From Shigella phage vB_SboM_Phaginator, in the sequence record OL615012: a stretch of 64,000 nt of DNA, one strand, 5' to 3'. Each line of letters begins with the position of its first letter. The stretch's first letter is position 1. The position numbers and the translations under genes are program-made. Positions 15,550-20,997 of this stretch are shown one piece after another. The notes beneath the pieces are model-generated. The model was not told the origin of the DNA, ran no database searches, and worked only from the letters and a program-made list of their open reading frames with translations.

Positions 15550-15740
15550 TTTGAATGATCTATAATTAATTTTAAATCTTCTTCACTGACAAAAATTTCG
15601 TCAGGACCTTCTATAACTTCAACCATACGAAGTTGATTAGTTAAGAGCTCACATACGAGCTCCTTGTTATAATCTTTAAATAGCTGGTCAATACGTTTCT
15701 TATGGGCTTTCTTAAGCTGACGCTTATTTAAACGAGTCAT
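15546..15740 (-). CDS. hypothetical protein (64 aa)
   Basis: ORF-track ORF; ATGA overlaps at both ends. Confidence 0.5.
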   Translation of the reverse strand: MTRLNKRQLKKAHKKRIDQLFKDYNKELVCELLTNQLRMVEVIEGPDEIFVSEEDLKLIIDHSK

Positions 15741-16258
15741 TAATAACCTCGGTCTTGACGAGCGAAGTTTTCAGCATTTTTCAGGTAATAAAGTTTAAAG
15801 ATTTCTTCAGCTGACATTCCAAGAGCAATAAATTTATTCATGAAAAAGTGAAATTGGTCAATCAGTTCAAATTTAATTTCAAGCTGATCTTCGGGAGATA
15901 AATCTTGAATTTTCTTGGATTGCATTTCAGAATAACGTTTCTTCCAAGGTTTCCATACAGCAGAAGCTTCTTTTTCACCATTACTCATACCACCAAGAGA
16001 AGTATATAGTTCGCGAGTTTCATCTGCGATATAATCGTCTTGGTTTCGCAACCAAGCAAGAACTTCTCCTGCAGTTTCAAGTGAATCAGGATGACGATTT
16101 GTTTCTGGTTTATCATTAGCCAAACGAATCTGTAAATGCCGCTGCATATCAAGCATAACCTGCAGTGGGTCAATATTGTGCATAATATTCTCAGCATATG
16201 CACGATTTGCTTTATCAACGCCTTCGATCAAATGAGCACATTCATTAAAGTAAGCCAT
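15740..16258 (-). CDS. 56: dCTPase/dUTPase (gp56)
   Basis: Start trimmed to MAYFNECAHLIEG..., giving 172 aa (T4 gp56 ~171 aa). Confidence 0.85.
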   Translation of the reverse strand: MAYFNECAHLIEGVDKANRAYAENIMHNIDPLQVMLDMQRHLQIRLANDKPETNRHPDSLETAGEVLAWLRNQDDYIADETRELYTSLGGMSNGEKEASAVWKPWKKRYSEMQSKKIQDLSPEDQLEIKFELIDQFHFFMNKFIALGMSAEEIFKLYYLKNAENFARQDRGY

Positions 16259-16292
16259 TATTTTTCCTTTCAATTCATGGGTTAGTAGATTA

Positions 16293-16317
16293 ATTATACA
16301 ATAAATATATAAAGCAA
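16293..16317 (-). promoter_or_regulatory. MotA-dependent middle promoter candidate for gene 56
   Basis: Minus strand TTGCTTTA (MotA box), 11 nt, TATAAT, ~35 nt upstream of the gene 56 ATG. Confidence 0.5.
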
Positions 16318-16329
16318 TAAGGAGGACAT

Positions 16330-16530
16330 ATGGTACAAAAATTAATGGCACTTGTTAATGCCATAAAAGGTAATAAAAAACGTATAGCTTTTACTATTTC
16401 TGCTATGGTAGGAATTTTACTCTGGAACTTTATTCTATCACCTGTTGCAATTGCACATGGTATTAATATTCCAGTAGTTACTCTTGATACATTTGTAGAT
16501 TTAGCATTTGCTTTAGTTGGGTTAATTTAA
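16330..16530 (+). CDS. small hydrophobic protein (66 aa) on the opposite strand
   Basis: Plus-strand ORF after AAGGAGG; hydrophobic sequence; stop overlaps the gene 61 stop; lies where T4 has dam as I recall. Confidence 0.35.
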   Translation: MVQKLMALVNAIKGNKKRIAFTISAMVGILLWNFILSPVAIAHGINIPVVTLDTFVDLAFALVGLI

Positions 16531-17555
16531 ATCTTAGCATATTTAGATAACCGCATTTTAGCCATCAACCCCTGGGCAATATTATTTTTCATATATTCCA
16601 TAATTTGTTCAGGGGTTGCACCTTCCTTTCTAATCATATCATTGACATCTTTTGATTTCCAGGGAGATTTATCCCAAAACATAACCCTTTCTCCTGCATC
16701 AACTAATTTAGTCATTCGCTTGATAGTGTCAGGGTGACGAGGTTCATTATCTAAAACCCACACTCGTCTATCTTTAAATGGAACAACTTCTAGGTCTAAT
16801 TGACCGCCAGTAATGGCTATACCATTTTCAATAAAAAGTGAATCGATGGGTCCTTCTAGAACATATACATCACCATCTTTAACTCGTTCAACACCGTAAA
16901 TTTTTGTTGCCTCAGGATAAGCTTTGATGGTGATATACTTTTGTGGAGCATCTTTCTTTAATGCACGTCCTTGAAAAGACTCAGCTTTTCCATTAGCATT
17001 ATAAATTGGAATAACAAGACGAGGCTCAGAAATTTCCTTTTTGTATGTTCCCGGTGCTATGCTATTAACTAATTTAGGCCATTCGGTTGTAAACCAAAGA
17101 TATTTCCATTTATCCTTTGGAATACAACGAGCTTTTACATATTTTATAATTGGATGGTCTTCCGCCAGTTTATCTAATCTAACACATGACGGAAGAGATT
17201 TAATTATTTTCTTCTCAGGTTGCTTAGGAAGTTCTTTAGGTTTTTCTACTGGACGACTTTTACCTTTTTCTTTTCTTATTTCAAAGATATACTCACGATA
17301 TAAATCAGGTTCAAACTCCTTTAAATATATTCCGATTGGTGCATGATAATTACAGTTATAACAATGAATATTTCCTTCATTATTATCGCCATAATACCAT
17401 CCACGGGCTTTATTTTGATCGGTTTTTGAATCTCCACAAACAGGACATCTAAACCGTAATTTAAAAGTTGAACTATTATTTACTTGTGTGAATTTAGGTA
17501 AATGAGCTAATGCACGGTATGCAAACTCATTATCAATCCAAGGTATTGATGACAT
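16527..17555 (-). CDS. 61: DNA primase (gp61)
   Basis: 342-aa ORF, T4 gp61 length; zinc ribbon CPVCGDS...CYNC. Confidence 0.9.
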   Translation of the reverse strand: MSSIPWIDNEFAYRALAHLPKFTQVNNSSTFKLRFRCPVCGDSKTDQNKARGWYYGDNNEGNIHCYNCNYHAPIGIYLKEFEPDLYREYIFEIRKEKGKSRPVEKPKELPKQPEKKIIKSLPSCVRLDKLAEDHPIIKYVKARCIPKDKWKYLWFTTEWPKLVNSIAPGTYKKEISEPRLVIPIYNANGKAESFQGRALKKDAPQKYITIKAYPEATKIYGVERVKDGDVYVLEGPIDSLFIENGIAITGGQLDLEVVPFKDRRVWVLDNEPRHPDTIKRMTKLVDAGERVMFWDKSPWKSKDVNDMIRKEGATPEQIMEYMKNNIAQGLMAKMRLSKYAKI

Positions 17556-17557
17556 TT

Positions 17558-17722
17558 TTACTCTTCTTTTTCTTTAGATTCCTCTTTTTTCTTTTTAGGA
17601 ATCTGTTCAGGACCTTTATTTACTACAGCACCTGACGTTGTTCCAGTAGAGATATTTTCAGGATTACCACCTGAATCTCCAGCGACCATATCTTCTTTAA
17701 TAAATTCTTTATATGTTTTCAT
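17558..17722 (-). CDS. small charged peptide with internal-protein-like N-terminus (54 aa)
   Basis: Hand-translated MKTYKEFIKEDMVAGDSGGNPENISTGTTSGAVVNKGPEQIPKKKKEESKEKEE; GAGGT SD; below the 60-aa track cutoff. Confidence 0.45.
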   Translation of the reverse strand: MKTYKEFIKEDMVAGDSGGNPENISTGTTSGAVVNKGPEQIPKKKKEESKEKEE

Positions 17723-17723
17723 A

Positions 17724-18080
17724 TTAACCTCTATTCATAAAAGCATTAAAAATTTGGTCATCAATAGATGGCGCAGTAATATTTTCTGCATCATTTAGCA
17801 AATCATTAATTTCATCAGATAGCATAACACATGTACCTTTATTTCCTGTAATTGTTACTGCACAATTACGAACGTTTTCTTTATCAAATTTTAGGTTAAT
17901 ATTTTCGTAGTGAAAATCCTTTAATGCCGAATATATCTTTAAAATGAAATTGTCTTTTACTACAATAAACCCAACCTCACTATTAAAACGCGGTTCATGG
18001 AAACTGTAATAAACCTTTTCATCTATAAAATCGTATGAAATTTTTTCCATTTTTAAATATGAAAATTCAGAACTATACAT
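17724..18080 (-). CDS. hypothetical protein (118 aa)
   Basis: C-terminus IDDQIFNAFMNRG and its 3' DNA repeat the end of the next ORF. Confidence 0.6.
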   Translation of the reverse strand: MYSSEFSYLKMEKISYDFIDEKVYYSFHEPRFNSEVGFIVVKDNFILKIYSALKDFHYENINLKFDKENVRNCAVTITGNKGTCVMLSDEINDLLNDAENITAPSIDDQIFNAFMNRG

Positions 18081-18081
18081 A

Positions 18082-18714
18082 TTAACCTTTATTCATAAAA
18101 GCATTAAAAATTTGATCGTCAATAGAAACTTTTACTTTAGGCTGTTCTTCAAACGGTAATTCATATCCACATATTACAATTTTGTGATCGATACCAAAAT
18201 ACACAGAAGCAATATTATTAATATTATTTTCAGTGAAATCTAAATCAACATCAATATCTTTTTGACTAACGCTCAAAGGATAATTAATACGAATAATTCG
18301 ATTATCTTTAACAAAGATTCCACCGACATACTCTGTGCTGCGTTTAAAGTTTACACGTTTCCTAAATGAAAAATATTCAGGTTCTTTATGGGCTCGACTC
18401 ATAGGGCTTAAAGTGTATTCCGAATATGAAATATCAAATCCTACACCTTCAATATGAGCCAAAGTGTCATGATTAAACCAATTATAATCGTATGCCAAAT
18501 CCATTAAATTGTAATATGTGAAAGGCACCGGATTAACATCATATGTTGTACCTTTAAAATCTGCCCAGGCAACGATTTCGTTATCTTTAACAATTACAAA
18601 AATTGTGCCAATAAGATATCCACGGTTATTTTCATCAGGCGTTATATTATAACATTGTGCATCAGGAAATTTACCGTATTTAAACGGTGGATTTTTGTGC
18701 ATATAATAAATCAT
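18082..18714 (-). CDS. hypothetical protein (210 aa)
   Basis: C-terminus IDDQIFNAFMNKG; T4 61.2-like position. Confidence 0.6.
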   Translation of the reverse strand: MIYYMHKNPPFKYGKFPDAQCYNITPDENNRGYLIGTIFVIVKDNEIVAWADFKGTTYDVNPVPFTYYNLMDLAYDYNWFNHDTLAHIEGVGFDISYSEYTLSPMSRAHKEPEYFSFRKRVNFKRSTEYVGGIFVKDNRIIRINYPLSVSQKDIDVDLDFTENNINNIASVYFGIDHKIVICGYELPFEEQPKVKVSIDDQIFNAFMNKG

Positions 18715-18715
18715 A

Positions 18716-19009
18716 TTATTCGCCTGTGATTTCGGTTACGATATTTTTGTTATTAAAGTTTTTATCGCAATACAGAACATAATTATACTGCATTACACCA
18801 TCAGACTTAAGTTGTTTTTGCACTTCAGCTTTCATTTCAGGACGATCGCGCTCAACGATATTCATAATATCCGCTTCAATTTGAGTTTCAACTTCAGTCT
18901 GATCTGCAGTCATAGACCATTCACACAAGTCTTTATCATATCCTGCCATAGAAGGCTGAGCAGCACAAGAAGCCAAAGTAAAAATTGTAGCAAAAATAAA
19001 TTTTTTCAT
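18716..19009 (-). CDS. sp: Spackle (periplasmic, signal peptide)
   Basis: 97-aa ORF with signal peptide MKKFIFATIFTLASCAAQP; same length and position as T4 sp. Confidence 0.8.
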   Translation of the reverse strand: MKKFIFATIFTLASCAAQPSMAGYDKDLCEWSMTADQTEVETQIEADIMNIVERDRPEMKAEVQKQLKSDGVMQYNYVLYCDKNFNNKNIVTEITGE

Positions 19010-19037
19010 GATAATCTCCTCAGTAGTTTATGTTTAT

Positions 19038-19067
19038 ATAGTATATCAATTTCCAACAAAAGTAAAC
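19038..19067 (-). promoter_or_regulatory. T4-type early promoter
   Basis: Minus strand GTTTAC-18 nt-TACTAT, then GAGGAG and the sp ATG. Confidence 0.55.
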
Positions 19068-19069
19068 AG

Positions 19070-19327
19070 CTATTTTAAAACTTCTGCATAATCACATGTT
19101 ACAAACTGTTTCTCTAACTTGACGATTTTACGAAAGTATCTTTTGCATTGGCGAATCTGTCGCTTCGTAGGGCGCACAGCAAACTTAATAAATTCCACTC
19201 GACCAAATGGAGGACTTTCTTCTGCTGGAATATCTAACACCAATTCCCACGTATCCGCAATAAGTGCCTTGAATTGAGTATTTTTCCTAACATTATACGG
19301 AGTAGGTTTAAATAAAACAATATGCAT
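19070..19327 (-). CDS. hypothetical protein (85 aa), T4 61.4 position
   Basis: ORF-track ORF between dmd and sp. Confidence 0.55.
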   Translation of the reverse strand: MHIVLFKPTPYNVRKNTQFKALIADTWELVLDIPAEESPPFGRVEFIKFAVRPTKRQIRQCKRYFRKIVKLEKQFVTCDYAEVLK

Positions 19328-19328
19328 A

Positions 19329-19511
19329 TTATCCTCTGCAATCTACTTCACACACTTGCTTGTCATCAATGAAAGCTTTAACTAATGCTTTATTAACTTC
19401 AGCATATTGAGTAGTAGCCCATTGAACGTCATCTTTCATCATTGTGATTTCTTTAGTAAACATGCTTTCATTCTTAAACCACCCCATAAAAACTACCTTT
19501 ACTAATTCCAT
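19329..19511 (-). CDS. dmd: Dmd antitoxin (inhibitor of host RnlA/LsoA)
   Basis: 60-aa ORF MELVKVVFMGWFKNES... matches T4 Dmd as recalled; directly downstream of gene 41. Confidence 0.85.
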   Translation of the reverse strand: MELVKVVFMGWFKNESMFTKEITMMKDDVQWATTQYAEVNKALVKAFIDDKQVCEVDCRG

Positions 19512-19540
19512 AACAATCTCCTCATTTAACCAACAAGACT

Positions 19541-19570
19541 ACTATACCATAGTCTTGCCAGCTTGTAAAC
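19541..19570 (-). promoter_or_regulatory. T4-type early promoter
   Basis: Minus strand GTTTAC-18 nt-TGGTATAGT, then GAGGAG and the dmd ATG. Confidence 0.65.
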
Positions 19571-20997
19571 TAAAATTTTAATTCATTTGCCAAAGCATCT
19601 AACTGAGCTCGAGTGGATTCATTTCTTTGATAGCGATTCTGTTCAGCCTGAATCTGCTGTGAACCTGCTACTTCACTCACTTCAGTTGGAGTAGAATCTT
19701 GTTCAATTTCTACCCATTTCTGATTTCCCTTTTGAACACCCATCAAAAACTTATTCCACTTATTTTTATCACCATATCGTGATTTGATTTGCTTAATGAG
19801 TTGCTGTTCAGCAGCTGCTAGCTCCTCGGTTTCAATGACCGCAAGCATAAAATCGGCTGTTGCTGGAAGACCGGCAGATTCTGCAATATCGCTCATGTTA
19901 ACATCAGAAGAATCCCAAGCTTGTTTACCAACCTGTGCTGCGGTCCAAAGAACAGTTTCGGTTTCAACAGCAAGAGCACGCAATTCTTCTGCGATGGCTT
20001 TAACAGTTGTGTAACTATTTTCTGAATAAACTCTGATGCGGCAAGATTTACAAATACCTAGATAGTCAACAATAATGATTGTTGGAACAAAATTCTTCTT
20101 GAGCTTTAATTCGTTTAAAAGCGATCGAAATGTATTAGCGTCTGCTCCACCAGTAGGATACTGTTTAACGATTAAACGGCCGAGAGTAGATTTCTCACGC
20201 CATTTTTCCATTTTTCCTTTATATTCAGCGTAAGAAATATGCCCATCATCAATGTCATCAAGAGAAACGTCAAGCATATTAGCATCAATACGTTTAGCAC
20301 AGACTTCTTCTGCCATTTCCATGGAAATGTAAAGAACGTTATGTCCGAGCTGCAAATAATCTGCTGCCAATGAACACAGACCTAATGACTTACCAACGTT
20401 AACACCAGCCATTAAAACGTTCAGTGTTCCAGTTTCAGCTCCGCCTTTAGTAATTTTATTTAGAATTTTGAGTTTAAATGGAACTTTACGAGCTTTATTC
20501 ATATAAGATAGCCAACGTGCTTCATAATCATCCATCCAATCATGACCAACGTAGCTATCAAATGAAATTGACAATGCTTGTCGCATGATGTCAGGAATAG
20601 CACCAACATCCGGCATTTTCTTATTTCGTTTTTCCGGAGGAAGCTCAGCATTAGTTTGAATTTCAATTATTTTAGATGTGGCGTTAAACATCGCCCTTTG
20701 CTGAACATATTTTTCTGTTTCTTTTACTAACCAGCTATGGTCTTCCGGAGAATCGGCCAGTTTTGAAATAAGTGTTTTTACACCAGAATATTCTGTTTCA
20801 GTAAATGAACTATTTTCTAACGCAACATTTAACGCATTAATAGATGGAACGCTATGGTACTCATTAACATGAGATTTAATTAATTTGAATGTATTTTTAG
20901 CTGGACCACTTTCAAAATATTCTGAATCCATATATGGCCAAACTTTTGAAAAATAAGCTTGATCAAATATGAGATGAGAAAGAATAATTTCTACCAC
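19570..20997 (-). CDS. 41: replicative DNA helicase (gp41)
   Basis: 475-aa ORF, T4 gp41 length; DnaB-like Walker A GVNVGKS. Confidence 0.9.
   Translation of the reverse strand: MVEIILSHLIFDQAYFSKVWPYMDSEYFESGPAKNTFKLIKSHVNEYHSVPSINALNVALENSSFTETEYSGVKTLISKLADSPEDHSWLVKETEKYVQQRAMFNATSKIIEIQTNAELPPEKRNKKMPDVGAIPDIMRQALSISFDSYVGHDWMDDYEARWLSYMNKARKVPFKLKILNKITKGGAETGTLNVLMAGVNVGKSLGLCSLAADYLQLGHNVLYISMEMAEEVCAKRIDANMLDVSLDDIDDGHISYAEYKGKMEKWREKSTLGRLIVKQYPTGGADANTFRSLLNELKLKKNFVPTIIIVDYLGICKSCRIRVYSENSYTTVKAIAEELRALAVETETVLWTAAQVGKQAWDSSDVNMSDIAESAGLPATADFMLAVIETEELAAAEQQLIKQIKSRYGDKNKWNKFLMGVQKGNQKWVEIEQDSTPTEVSEVAGSQQIQAEQNRYQRNESTRAQLDALANELKF

What the first reader, a model, noticed from the sequence alone, without database searches (positions are those of the whole stretch)
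17724..18128. Two adjacent genes share duplicated 3' ends at DNA and protein level
The 118-aa and 210-aa ORFs both end ...IDDQIFNAFMN(R/K)G. About 45 bp at and after each stop (around 17723..17767 and 18080..18124) are nearly identical. Otherwise the proteins differ. This suggests a recent partial duplication or recombination between neighbours.
Basis: seen in the sequence. Interest (0 to 1): 0.4.

Follow-up and report, generated by a model that had tools for sequence, protein, structure and literature searches.

The report
Shared gene tail carrying a promoter
Two neighbouring anti-defence genes of a T4-like phage end in the same 49-base module, which encodes a conserved protein tail, holds a known promoter for the primase gene, and marks where related phages gain or lose one of the genes.

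Summary
A 49-nt direct repeat (46/49 identical) lies at 17720-17768 and 18078-18126, on the minus strand, 358 nt apart.

The window is a Tequatrovirus (T4-like phage). The 210-aa gene is adfA (T4 gene 61.2, anti-DarT factor A). The 118-aa gene is an old, diverged, selected paralogue of AdfA's C-terminal half, so the proteins do not "otherwise differ".

The repeat does several jobs:
- It encodes the invariant tail SIDDQIFNAFMN(R/K)G.
- It contains the stop codon, the ribosome-binding site and the start codon of the next gene.
- It holds the MotA box and -10 element of P61, a middle promoter mapped in T4.

The peptide is conserved across genera although synonymous sites are saturated. It also ends three further, otherwise dissimilar protein families at the same locus.

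The repeat bounds a gene-presence polymorphism. T4 has adfA only, lacking exactly 358 bp. T2 has only the short gene. About 157 phage records have both. A second exact indel of this kind occurs in Gaprivervirus.

"Recent partial duplication" is only partly right: excess DNA identity is marginal (P=0.035).

This is a modest result, mostly explained by known elements. What the tail does is unknown.

The parts
17720..17768 (-). Repeat copy 1. It covers the last 14 codons of the 118-aa gene (S105-G118), the stop TAA (17724-17726), one T, and the ATG of gene 61.1 (17720-17722). It is identical to the single copy in T4 and is therefore the orthologue of T4 promoter P61.
18078..18126 (-). Repeat copy 2. 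It covers the last 14 codons of adfA (S197-G210), the stop TAA (18082-18084), one T, and the ATG of the 118-aa gene (18078-18080). It differs from copy 1 at 3 positions (GAC GAT for GAT GAC; AAA for AGA). All three lie outside the MotA box and the -10 element.
17739..17748 (-). MotA box TAATGCTTTT of the P61 orthologue, formed by the codons F-N-A-F. It matches 9 of 10 positions of the consensus wwwTGCTTtA and lies 12 nt upstream of the -10 element.
17721..17726 (-). -10 element TAATAT of the P61 orthologue, made of the stop codon, the spacer T and the first two bases of the 61.1 start codon. The predicted transcription start is 17714, equivalent to T4 19122.
18097..18106 (-). MotA box TAATGCTTTT of the second, duplicated P61-like promoter, inside the adfA tail codons.
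18079..18084 (-). -10 element TAATAT of the duplicated promoter. The predicted start is about 18072-18074, just downstream of the ATG of the 118-aa gene.
   Evidence: inference
17724..18080 (-). 118-aa gene (PHROG 4122): a short paralogue of the C-terminal half of AdfA. It is present in 298 phage records.
18082..18714 (-). adfA (T4 gene 61.2, anti-DarT factor A), 210 aa. It has Asn at residue 167, the position equivalent to RB69 residue 164.
17558..17722 (-). Gene 61.1 (54 aa). Its start codon is the last triplet of repeat copy 1. The primase gene 61 follows at 16527-17555.
17769..18126 (-). The 358-bp unit (body of the 118-aa gene plus one repeat copy) that is absent from T4 and present here.

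Best explanation
The window comes from a Tequatrovirus. The region is the 'anti-toxin island' between the helicase gene 41 and the primase gene 61. On the minus strand it reads dmd, 61.4 (tifA), sp, adfA (61.2), a 118-aa gene, 61.1, 61.

The two genes with the same 3' end are tandem paralogues. One is full-length adfA. The other is a single-domain relative of its C-terminal half.

The 49-nt repeat is a compact module with several uses:
1. It encodes an invariant C-terminal peptide, SIDDQIFNAFMN(R/K)G, predicted at low confidence to be a helix. The peptide is kept by protein-level selection.
2. It contains the stop codon, the Shine-Dalgarno sequence (GAGG or AAGG) and the start codon of the next gene.
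3. It contains a MotA-dependent middle promoter. The MotA box lies in codons F-N-A-F, a 12-nt spacer follows, and the -10 element TAATAT is formed by the stop-start junction. In T4 this is the mapped promoter P61, which serves the primase gene.

The phage in this window therefore carries two P61-type promoters 358 nt apart.

Because both copies are under the same constraints they stay nearly identical. That gives T4-type homologous recombination a 49-bp substrate, so the short gene behaves as a cassette that is gained or lost exactly at the repeats.

Shown here: the repeat, the paralogy, purifying selection on gene and tail, identity of copy 1 with the T4 P61 sequence, and the exact indels.

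Inferred: activity of the second promoter copy, recombination as the cause of the indels, and any anti-toxin role for the 118-aa protein.
For: Identity of the phage and genes:
- The region is 99.8% identical to Escherichia phage REP1 and matches 664 T4-like records.
- The gene order matches T4.
- The 210-aa protein hits Pfam AdfA PF23813 over its full length at 461.7 bits. The 118-aa protein scores 31.9 bits (cut-off 27) on profile positions 113-211. The two PHROG families cross-hit.

Paralogy beyond the tail:
- hhalign without the tails gives P=0.002, co-linear.
- Smith-Waterman without the tails gives 65 against 31.5 +/- 5.6, with 0 of 2000 shuffles reaching it. The match is to the C-terminal half only.

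The short gene is real: dN/dS is 0.09-0.37, and orthologues of 46-49% identity exist in VR20 and VR25.

Selection on the tail peptide:
- Between genera the tail has pS 0.73-0.75 and pN 0.03-0.06.
- The tail is invariant in all AdfA and short-gene sequences collected.
- The same motif ends PHROG families 8539, 37928 and 28853 at the syntenic position.

Promoter:
- The table of T4 middle promoters in PMC2988021 lists P61 with its start site at 19122, gives the MotA box consensus wwwTGCTTtA, and places the box 12 +/- 1 bp from the -10 element.
- In T4 that start lies 7 nt downstream of the TAATAT at the 61.2 stop / 61.1 start junction, with TAATGCTTTT 12 nt upstream.
- Both window copies match TGCTT-N14-TAATAT.
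- The record of phage Lutter annotates 'promoter' on both tails.

Cassette behaviour:
- T4 lacks exactly 358 bp and keeps one copy.
- T2 and L009 have the short gene only.
- In the phage collection adfA is in 486 records, the short gene in 298, and both adjacent in 157.
- The contig of L021 equals VR25 minus its 119-aa gene, with the boundaries in the tails.
- T4 is known to recombine at short homologies (PMC9391042).
Against: - P61 was mapped in T4 only. Activity of either copy in this phage, and of the second copy anywhere, has not been tested.
- Transcripts from either promoter copy would start after the ATG of the next gene. The promoter therefore serves genes further downstream, not the adjacent one.
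- The excess of identical synonymous codons between the two copies is marginal (P=0.035). Recent homogenisation is neither required nor excluded.
- T4's single tail is entirely of the copy-1 type, and L021's is entirely of the upstream type. Neither is a visible hybrid, so the direction of change (insertion or deletion) is unresolved.
- The T2 arrangement is not a simple microhomology deletion of the present sequences.
- The function of the tail peptide is unknown. The AlphaFold models have low confidence (mean pLDDT 68 and 60) and there is no structural match in the PDB.
- T2 lacking adfN is sensitive to DarTG1 although T2 carries the short gene. The short protein therefore does not neutralise that DarT1 at native expression.
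Confidence: 0.75

Rival explanations
1. The two neighbours are otherwise unrelated genes, and a recent partial duplication or gene conversion copied only the last ~45 bp from one to the other.
For: - The two copies differ at only 2 of about 6.3 synonymous sites, whereas the gene bodies are too diverged to align as DNA.
- In VR20 the two tails in one genome share synonymous variants (CAG, GCC, TTC, AAG) that differ from those in Tequatrovirus. This hints at concerted evolution.
Against: - The proteins are homologous well beyond the tail.
- The tail is present in every AdfA and short-gene sequence, including genomes that have only one of the two genes (T4, T2, RB69-like). It was therefore not recently copied from a neighbour.
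- The codon-identity excess is marginal (P=0.035).
- In VR25 the two tails differ at 7 positions.
Confidence: 0.15
2. The identity is purely a nucleotide-level constraint from the promoter P61 and the ribosome-binding and start region. The shared peptide is a by-product of that DNA.
For: - The MotA box and -10 element fall inside the repeat and are untouched by the 3 mismatches.
- The last two codons supply the Shine-Dalgarno sequence of the next gene.
Against: - Between genera, synonymous sites of the tail are saturated (pS 0.73) while the peptide is kept (pN 0.03-0.06).
- RB69-type (GCA TTT) and Gaprivervirus (GCC TTC) tails alter the TGCTT core.
- The codons S-I-D-D-Q-I lie upstream of the MotA box and are still invariant.
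- The distant families ending in ...DSQIFNYWMKK and ...DDEIFNAWMKR keep the peptide without any MotA box or TAATATG junction.
Confidence: 0.1
3. The tail is a portable functional peptide: a binding motif or 'warhead' for a common partner such as a toxin, the sliding clamp or another replisome protein. Recombination at its own coding sequence has grafted it onto unrelated small proteins. The locus would then be a cassette-exchange site for anti-defence genes.
For: - Five PHROG families (3781, 4122, 8539, 37928, 28853) at the same position after sp share only the tail, or little else.
- Exact cassette indels at tails occur in two genera.
- The locus lies in a described anti-toxin island (PMC9391042).
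Against: - The same pattern is expected if one ancestral gene diversified rapidly and only its tail stayed constrained.
- A weak, co-linear N-terminal resemblance between the 145-aa family and AdfA (E 0.15; P 0.07) fits common descent.
- No partner is known.
- The tail does not match the clamp-binding ends of gp43 and gp55 in this window ([17 protein letters not shown]).
- The residue known to control DarT1 binding (RB69 position 164) is not in the tail.
Confidence: 0.25
4. The 118-aa ORF is a decaying remnant of a tandem adfA duplication, or the arrangement is an assembly artefact.
For: - The ORF corresponds only to the C-terminal half of AdfA.
- One public record (phiD1) shows four tails together with ambiguous bases in this region.
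Against: - dN/dS is 0.09-0.37 and the length is kept at 117-119 aa across genera.
- The ORF has its own start codon and Shine-Dalgarno sequence.
- T2-type phages keep it as the only family member.
- It is present in 298 independent records, 157 of them with adfA adjacent.
Confidence: 0.03

Closest known systems
AdfA (anti-DarT factor A; T4 gene 61.2; Pfam PF23813), described by LeRoux et al. 2022 and discussed in PMC11257639
   Same: The 210-aa gene is a full-length member at the same locus. The 118-aa protein aligns with the AdfA C-terminal half, which holds the DarT1 specificity residue, and has the identical C-terminal tail.
   Different: - The short protein lacks the N-terminal half and is only about 30% identical outside the tail.
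- T2 was described as lacking an adfA homologue but carries this short gene.
- T2 without adfN is DarTG1-sensitive, so the short protein does not neutralise that DarT1.
- The window's AdfA has Asn at the RB69-164 position. It has neither the neutralising His nor the inactive Arg.
T4 MotA/AsiA-dependent middle promoter P61 (start site T4 19122; PMC2988021, Table 1)
   Same: Copy 1 is base-for-base the T4 sequence from the MotA box to the start codon. Copy 2 keeps the MotA box, the 12-nt spacing and the -10 element.
   Different: This phage has two copies in tandem, 358 nt apart. The second has not been tested and would start inside the 118-aa gene.
Short-homology recombination causing deletions and amplifications in T4, and the anti-toxin island dmd-tifA-adfA (Srikant et al. 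2022, PMC9391042)
   Same: The genomic island is the same. Indels are bounded by direct repeats, with one repeat copy left behind.
   Different: - The repeat here is 49 bp of functional sequence, not a 2-10-bp chance microhomology.
- The polymorphism is a natural one spread over hundreds of isolates, not one selected in the laboratory.
Mobile regulatory cassettes that mediate modular shuffling in T4-type genomes (promoter-early stem-loops; recalled from the literature, not checked here)
   Same: A repeated regulatory sequence at gene boundaries acts as a recombination joint for swapping small accessory genes.
   Different: Here the joint is a middle promoter that lies inside coding sequence. 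There is no conserved stem-loop.

Membership tests
AdfA family (Pfam PF23813) | The protein scores above the Pfam gathering threshold on the AdfA model | tested here: met
   The 210-aa protein scores 461.7 bits over profile positions 1-211. The 118-aa protein scores 31.9 bits (cut-off 27), but only on profile positions 113-211. About half of that score comes from the tail: tail-only hits of other families score 16-21 bits.
AdfA family (Pfam PF23813) | Homology extends beyond the shared 14-residue tail | tested here: met
   For the 118-aa protein against the AdfA C-terminal half, Smith-Waterman without tails gives 65 with 0 of 2000 shuffles reaching it, and hhalign without tails gives P=0.002. 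This is not met for PHROG families 8539, 37928 and 28853, where P is 0.07-0.7.
AdfA family (Pfam PF23813) | Two-domain architecture of about 210 aa | tested here: not met
   The 118-aa protein shows no significant match to the N-terminal half (36 against 27.8 +/- 5.1; 83 of 1000 shuffles reach it). The feature is met for the 210-aa protein.
AdfA family (Pfam PF23813) | Binds and neutralises a DarT toxin; His at the RB69-164 position gives activity against DarT1 | not testable with these tools
   The window's AdfA has Asn167 at that position, and the short protein has Asn72 at the aligned position. Indirect evidence: T2 lacking adfN is DarTG1-sensitive although it carries the short gene.
AdfA family (Pfam PF23813) | Location between sp and 61.1 in the anti-toxin island of T-even phages | tested here: met
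T4 middle promoter (MotA-dependent) | MotA box wwwTGCTTtA centred near -30 | tested here: met
   Both copies have TAATGCTTTT, which matches 9 of 10 positions. The consensus is taken from PMC2988021.
T4 middle promoter (MotA-dependent) | A -10 element TAnnnT placed 12 +/- 1 bp from the MotA box | tested here: met
   Both copies have TAATAT after a 12-nt spacer.
T4 middle promoter (MotA-dependent) | An experimentally mapped MotA-dependent transcription start | not testable with these tools
   The start was mapped in T4 only: P61, start 19122. Copy 1 is identical to the T4 sequence. Copy 2 has only been predicted, and was annotated as a promoter by the authors of the Lutter record.
T4 middle promoter (MotA-dependent) | The phage encodes MotA and AsiA | not tested
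   These genes lie outside the part of a T4-type genome covered by this window. Relatives at 99% identity are Tequatroviruses.
Repeat-mediated deletion or insertion by homologous recombination | The indel boundaries coincide with the direct repeats and one copy remains | tested here: met
   T4 against the window: an exact 358-bp gap with a single tail. L021 against VR25.
Repeat-mediated deletion or insertion by homologous recombination | Recurrent, independent events | tested here: inconclusive
   Both adfA alleles (T4-type and window-type) occur together with the short gene, and the pattern is seen in two genera. No phylogeny of events was built.

The most novel reading that the evidence does not exclude
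The motif D-D-Q-I-F-N-A-F-M-N-R-G would be a portable C-terminal module shared by at least five otherwise dissimilar small-protein families encoded just after sp in T4-like phages. It would bind one common partner. Its coding DNA would double as a middle promoter and as the recombination joint through which anti-defence cassettes (adfA, the 118-aa gene, the 145-aa family) are stacked, swapped or lost. The short gene, which is all that 'adfA-less' phages such as T2 retain, would be an inhibitor of a toxin not yet identified.
Probability: 0.25. Interest if true: 0.55.

Novelty: new member of a known kind. Interest (0 to 1): 0.33.

Why it matters
- It places an uncharacterised gene, carried by about 300 sequenced T-even phages, in the AdfA anti-toxin family. 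T2, reported to lack adfA, is one of those phages.
- It points to a 14-residue tail as the most constrained part of that family and so the obvious target for mutagenesis.
- It shows one stretch of DNA serving at once as coding sequence, mapped promoter, translation start region and recombination joint. That helps explain how accessory anti-defence genes are shuffled in T4-type genomes.
- Anyone deleting adfA or the short gene must keep or replace the tail, because it carries the primase promoter P61.
- None of this overturns current understanding.

Tried and rejected
- RNA element: there is no Rfam match in 17000-19600. The two copies fold differently and not better than shuffles (z -2.0 and +0.1).
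- Structure: the AlphaFold models of AdfA (mean pLDDT 68) and of the short protein (60) are too uncertain to compare domains. Foldseek against the PDB found nothing (best E 1.2). Against viral models it found only AdfA relatives and a 118-aa protein.
- Wider homologues: an exhaustive HMMER search with an AdfA profile over 1.84 billion representatives returned only AdfA and fragments of it. Word-indexed searches returned 5 clusters for the short protein and 16 for AdfA. No cellular relatives were found.
- Internal duplication in AdfA: BLASTP finds no similarity between the N-terminal and C-terminal halves.
- The idea that AdfA is a fusion of the 145-aa family and the short gene: the only support is a weak N-terminal match (E 0.15; P 0.07). 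It is not established.
- Clamp-binding motif: the gp43 and gp55 C-termini in this window ([17 protein letters not shown]) do not align convincingly with the tail.
- More copies of the DNA-level tail: a scan of IMG/VR found only 14 stretches, all from contigs already fetched.
- T2 as a microhomology deletion of a 'both' genome: the junction TTAGAGGTTAGT does not fit.

Full report
**Observation**

The region was read directly and its ORFs listed. On the minus strand a 210-aa ORF (18082-18714) is followed, one base after its stop, by a 118-aa ORF (17724-18080). One base after that stop comes a 54-aa ORF (17558-17722). The first two proteins end in SIDDQIFNAFMNKG and SIDDQIFNAFMNRG.

The repeat finder reports a single 49-nt direct repeat at 17720-17768 and 18078-18126, with 46/49 identity and 358-nt spacing. 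It runs from the Ser codon of the tail through the stop codon TAA and one T to the ATG of the next gene. The flanks are unrelated. The 11-mer AGGTTAATATG occurs nowhere else in the window (0.08 expected).

**Identity of the locus**

- The segment is 99.8% identical to Escherichia phage REP1 and matches 664 T4-like records.
- Gene order and annotation in relatives and in T4 give, on the minus strand: 41, dmd, 61.4 (tifA), sp, 61.2, the 118-aa gene, 61.1, 61 (primase).
- The 210-aa protein is AdfA, anti-DarT factor A (Pfam PF23813, 461.7 bits, full length). One record annotates it as such.
- Published work places adfA with dmd and tifA in an 'anti-toxin island' (PMC9391042).

**The two genes are paralogues**

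- BLASTP aligns residues 21-118 of the short protein with 111-210 of AdfA (37% identity, E 6e-11).
- The short protein passes the Pfam AdfA threshold (31.9 bits against 27) on the C-terminal half of the model. The two PHROG families cross-hit.
- The tail alone contributes much of these scores, so I removed it. hhalign of tail-less family alignments still gives a co-linear match (P=0.002). A Smith-Waterman score of 65 exceeds all 2000 shuffles (31.5 +/- 5.6). The match is to the C-terminal half only.
- The short gene is under purifying selection (dN/dS 0.09-0.37) and has orthologues of 46-49% identity in phages VR20 and VR25. It is a real and old gene, not a fragment.

**The tail is an ancient peptide motif**

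- The tail is invariant in all AdfA and short-gene sequences collected.
- In loci from other T4-like genera, the gene or genes immediately after sp end in the same motif:
  - RB69-type AdfA ends in ...SVDDQIFNAFMNRG.
  - A 145-aa family in Gaprivervirus and Dhakavirus (phrog_8539) ends in ...S(I/V)DDQIFNAFM(N/K)R(G/D).
  - A 126-aa family (phrog_37928) ends in ...DIDSQIFN(Y/C)WMKK.
  - A 111-aa family (phrog_28853) ends in ...SDDEIFNAWMKR.
- Apart from AdfA and the short gene, these families share nothing significant beyond the tail.
- Between this window and VR20 or VR25, the tail's synonymous sites are saturated (pS 0.73-0.75, as in the gene body), but the peptide is almost unchanged (pN 0.03-0.06).
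- Selection therefore acts on the peptide, and nucleotide constraint cannot explain its conservation across genera.

**The repeat also contains a known promoter**

- The record of phage Lutter annotates 'promoter' on both tails.
- The review of T4 prereplicative transcription lists the middle promoter P61 with its start site at T4 19122. It gives the MotA box consensus wwwTGCTTtA, placed 12 +/- 1 bp from the -10 element (PMC2988021).
- In T4, position 19122 lies 7 nt downstream of TAATAT (19134-19129). That hexamer is the 61.2 stop codon, one T, and the first two bases of the 61.1 start codon.
- Twelve nt upstream lies TAATGCTTTT, formed by the codons F-N-A-F.
- Copy 1 in the window is identical to this T4 sequence. 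Copy 2 keeps the box, the spacing and the -10 element.
- The three mismatches between the copies lie upstream of the box (two) and in the spacer (one).
- A MotA-type pattern search picks up both copies among 31 hits, against 15 +/- 4 expected; 23 of the 31 are on the minus strand.
- Predicted starts are 17714 and about 18072-18074. Both lie just after the ATG of the adjacent gene, so these transcripts serve downstream genes, ultimately the primase gene.
- Activity of the second copy is inferred, not shown.

**How much is 'recent duplication'?**

Given identical amino acids and this phage's codon usage, 6.6 of 12 informative codons are expected to be identical. Ten are observed (P=0.035). Peptide identity plus codon bias, plus the promoter constraint in Tequatrovirus, explains most of the DNA identity.

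There is a hint of homogenisation. The two tails of VR20 share synonymous variants, but those of VR25 differ at 7 positions. Gene conversion is possible but not required.

**The repeat bounds a presence/absence polymorphism**

- T4 aligns with the window on both sides and lacks exactly 358 bp, keeping one tail.
- T2 and the contig of L009 have the short gene but no adfA. There sp is followed by TTAGAGGTTAGT and then the ATG, which resembles the last bases of the tail.
- In the phage collection the adfA C-terminal half is in 486 records, the body of the short gene in 298, and the adfA-to-short-gene junction in 157. That gives roughly 330 records with adfA only, 157 with both and 140 with the short gene only.
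- Both adfA alleles (T4-type and window-type) occur together with the short gene.
- In Gaprivervirus, the contig of L021 equals VR25 minus its 119-aa gene, again with the boundaries in the tails.
- T4 is known to recombine at much shorter homologies (PMC9391042).
- The direction of each event is unresolved, because the surviving tails are not visible hybrids.

**Function**

- AdfA binds DarT1 when residue 164 (RB69 numbering) is His (PMC11257639). The window's AdfA has Asn there.
- T2 was described as lacking an adfA homologue, yet it carries the short gene.
- T2 lacking adfN is DarTG1-sensitive, so the short protein does not neutralise that DarT1 at native levels. My best guess is that it inhibits another toxin variant, but this is inference.
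- The role of the tail is unknown.
- The AlphaFold models have low confidence (mean pLDDT 68 and 60) and predict the tail as a terminal helix. No structural or cellular homologues were found.
- No RNA family or shared RNA fold was found.

**Verdict**

The finding is real, and known elements explain most of it: tandem AdfA-family paralogues whose conserved tail overlaps the mapped promoter P61 and the start region of the next gene. As far as I could find, three things have not been described:
- the assignment of the 118-aa gene as a half-size AdfA paralogue, present in T2;
- the sharing of the tail by several families at this locus;
- the exact cassette polymorphism at the tails.

Interest is moderate to low.

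Noticed in passing
window 18214-18216 (minus strand, adfA codon 167): At the position equivalent to RB69 AdfA residue 164, this phage's AdfA has Asn (NINNIAS). In RB69, His at that position neutralises DarT1 and Arg does not. Most other clusters have His, and the RB69 type has Arg.
   Followed up: partly
window about 18495-18714, compared with L002 3040-3259: The first ~220 nt of adfA are strongly diverged between this phage and T4, whereas the rest of the gene is about 90-95% identical. This looks like a mosaic breakpoint inside adfA.
   Followed up: no
window 15740-16530: T4 has dam (and T2 has dam plus another gene) between gene 56 and the primase gene 61. Here that interval is much shorter and holds only a 66-aa ORF on the plus strand (16330-16530). 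No dam gene is present at this position.
   Followed up: no
L049 (Yersinia phage phiD1) 2443-3979: This record shows adfA, the short gene, a 3' fragment of the short gene and then a second full copy, giving four tails. The stretch contains many ambiguous bases. It may be a misassembly across the repeat or a mixed population with variable copy number.
   Followed up: partly
L019 3397-3618 and L020 3397-3618 (phages VR20, VR25); also L023-L028: A second, 73-aa gene resembling 61.4 (tifA), about 40% identical, sits between the tail-bearing genes and 61.1. The regular 61.4 homologue upstream of sp is still present.
   Followed up: no
L008 3485-3952; also L011, L022: In RB69-like and more distant phages, the 61.1 sequence forms the C-terminal third of a 154-155-aa protein (phrog_2086) rather than a separate 54-aa gene.
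   Followed up: no
L003 2813-2824 (T2): Between sp and the short gene, T2 has TTAGAGGTTAGT. This resembles the last bases of the tail module (TAGAGGTTAAT), as if a stub of a tail were left there.
   Followed up: partly
whole window, minus strand: The MotA-type pattern TGCTT-N13-15-TANNNT occurs 31 times against 15 +/- 4 expected, 23 of them on the minus strand. Several hits lie close to published T4 middle promoters, for example 130-153 and 384-408 near PrIIB2 and PrIIB1.
   Followed up: no
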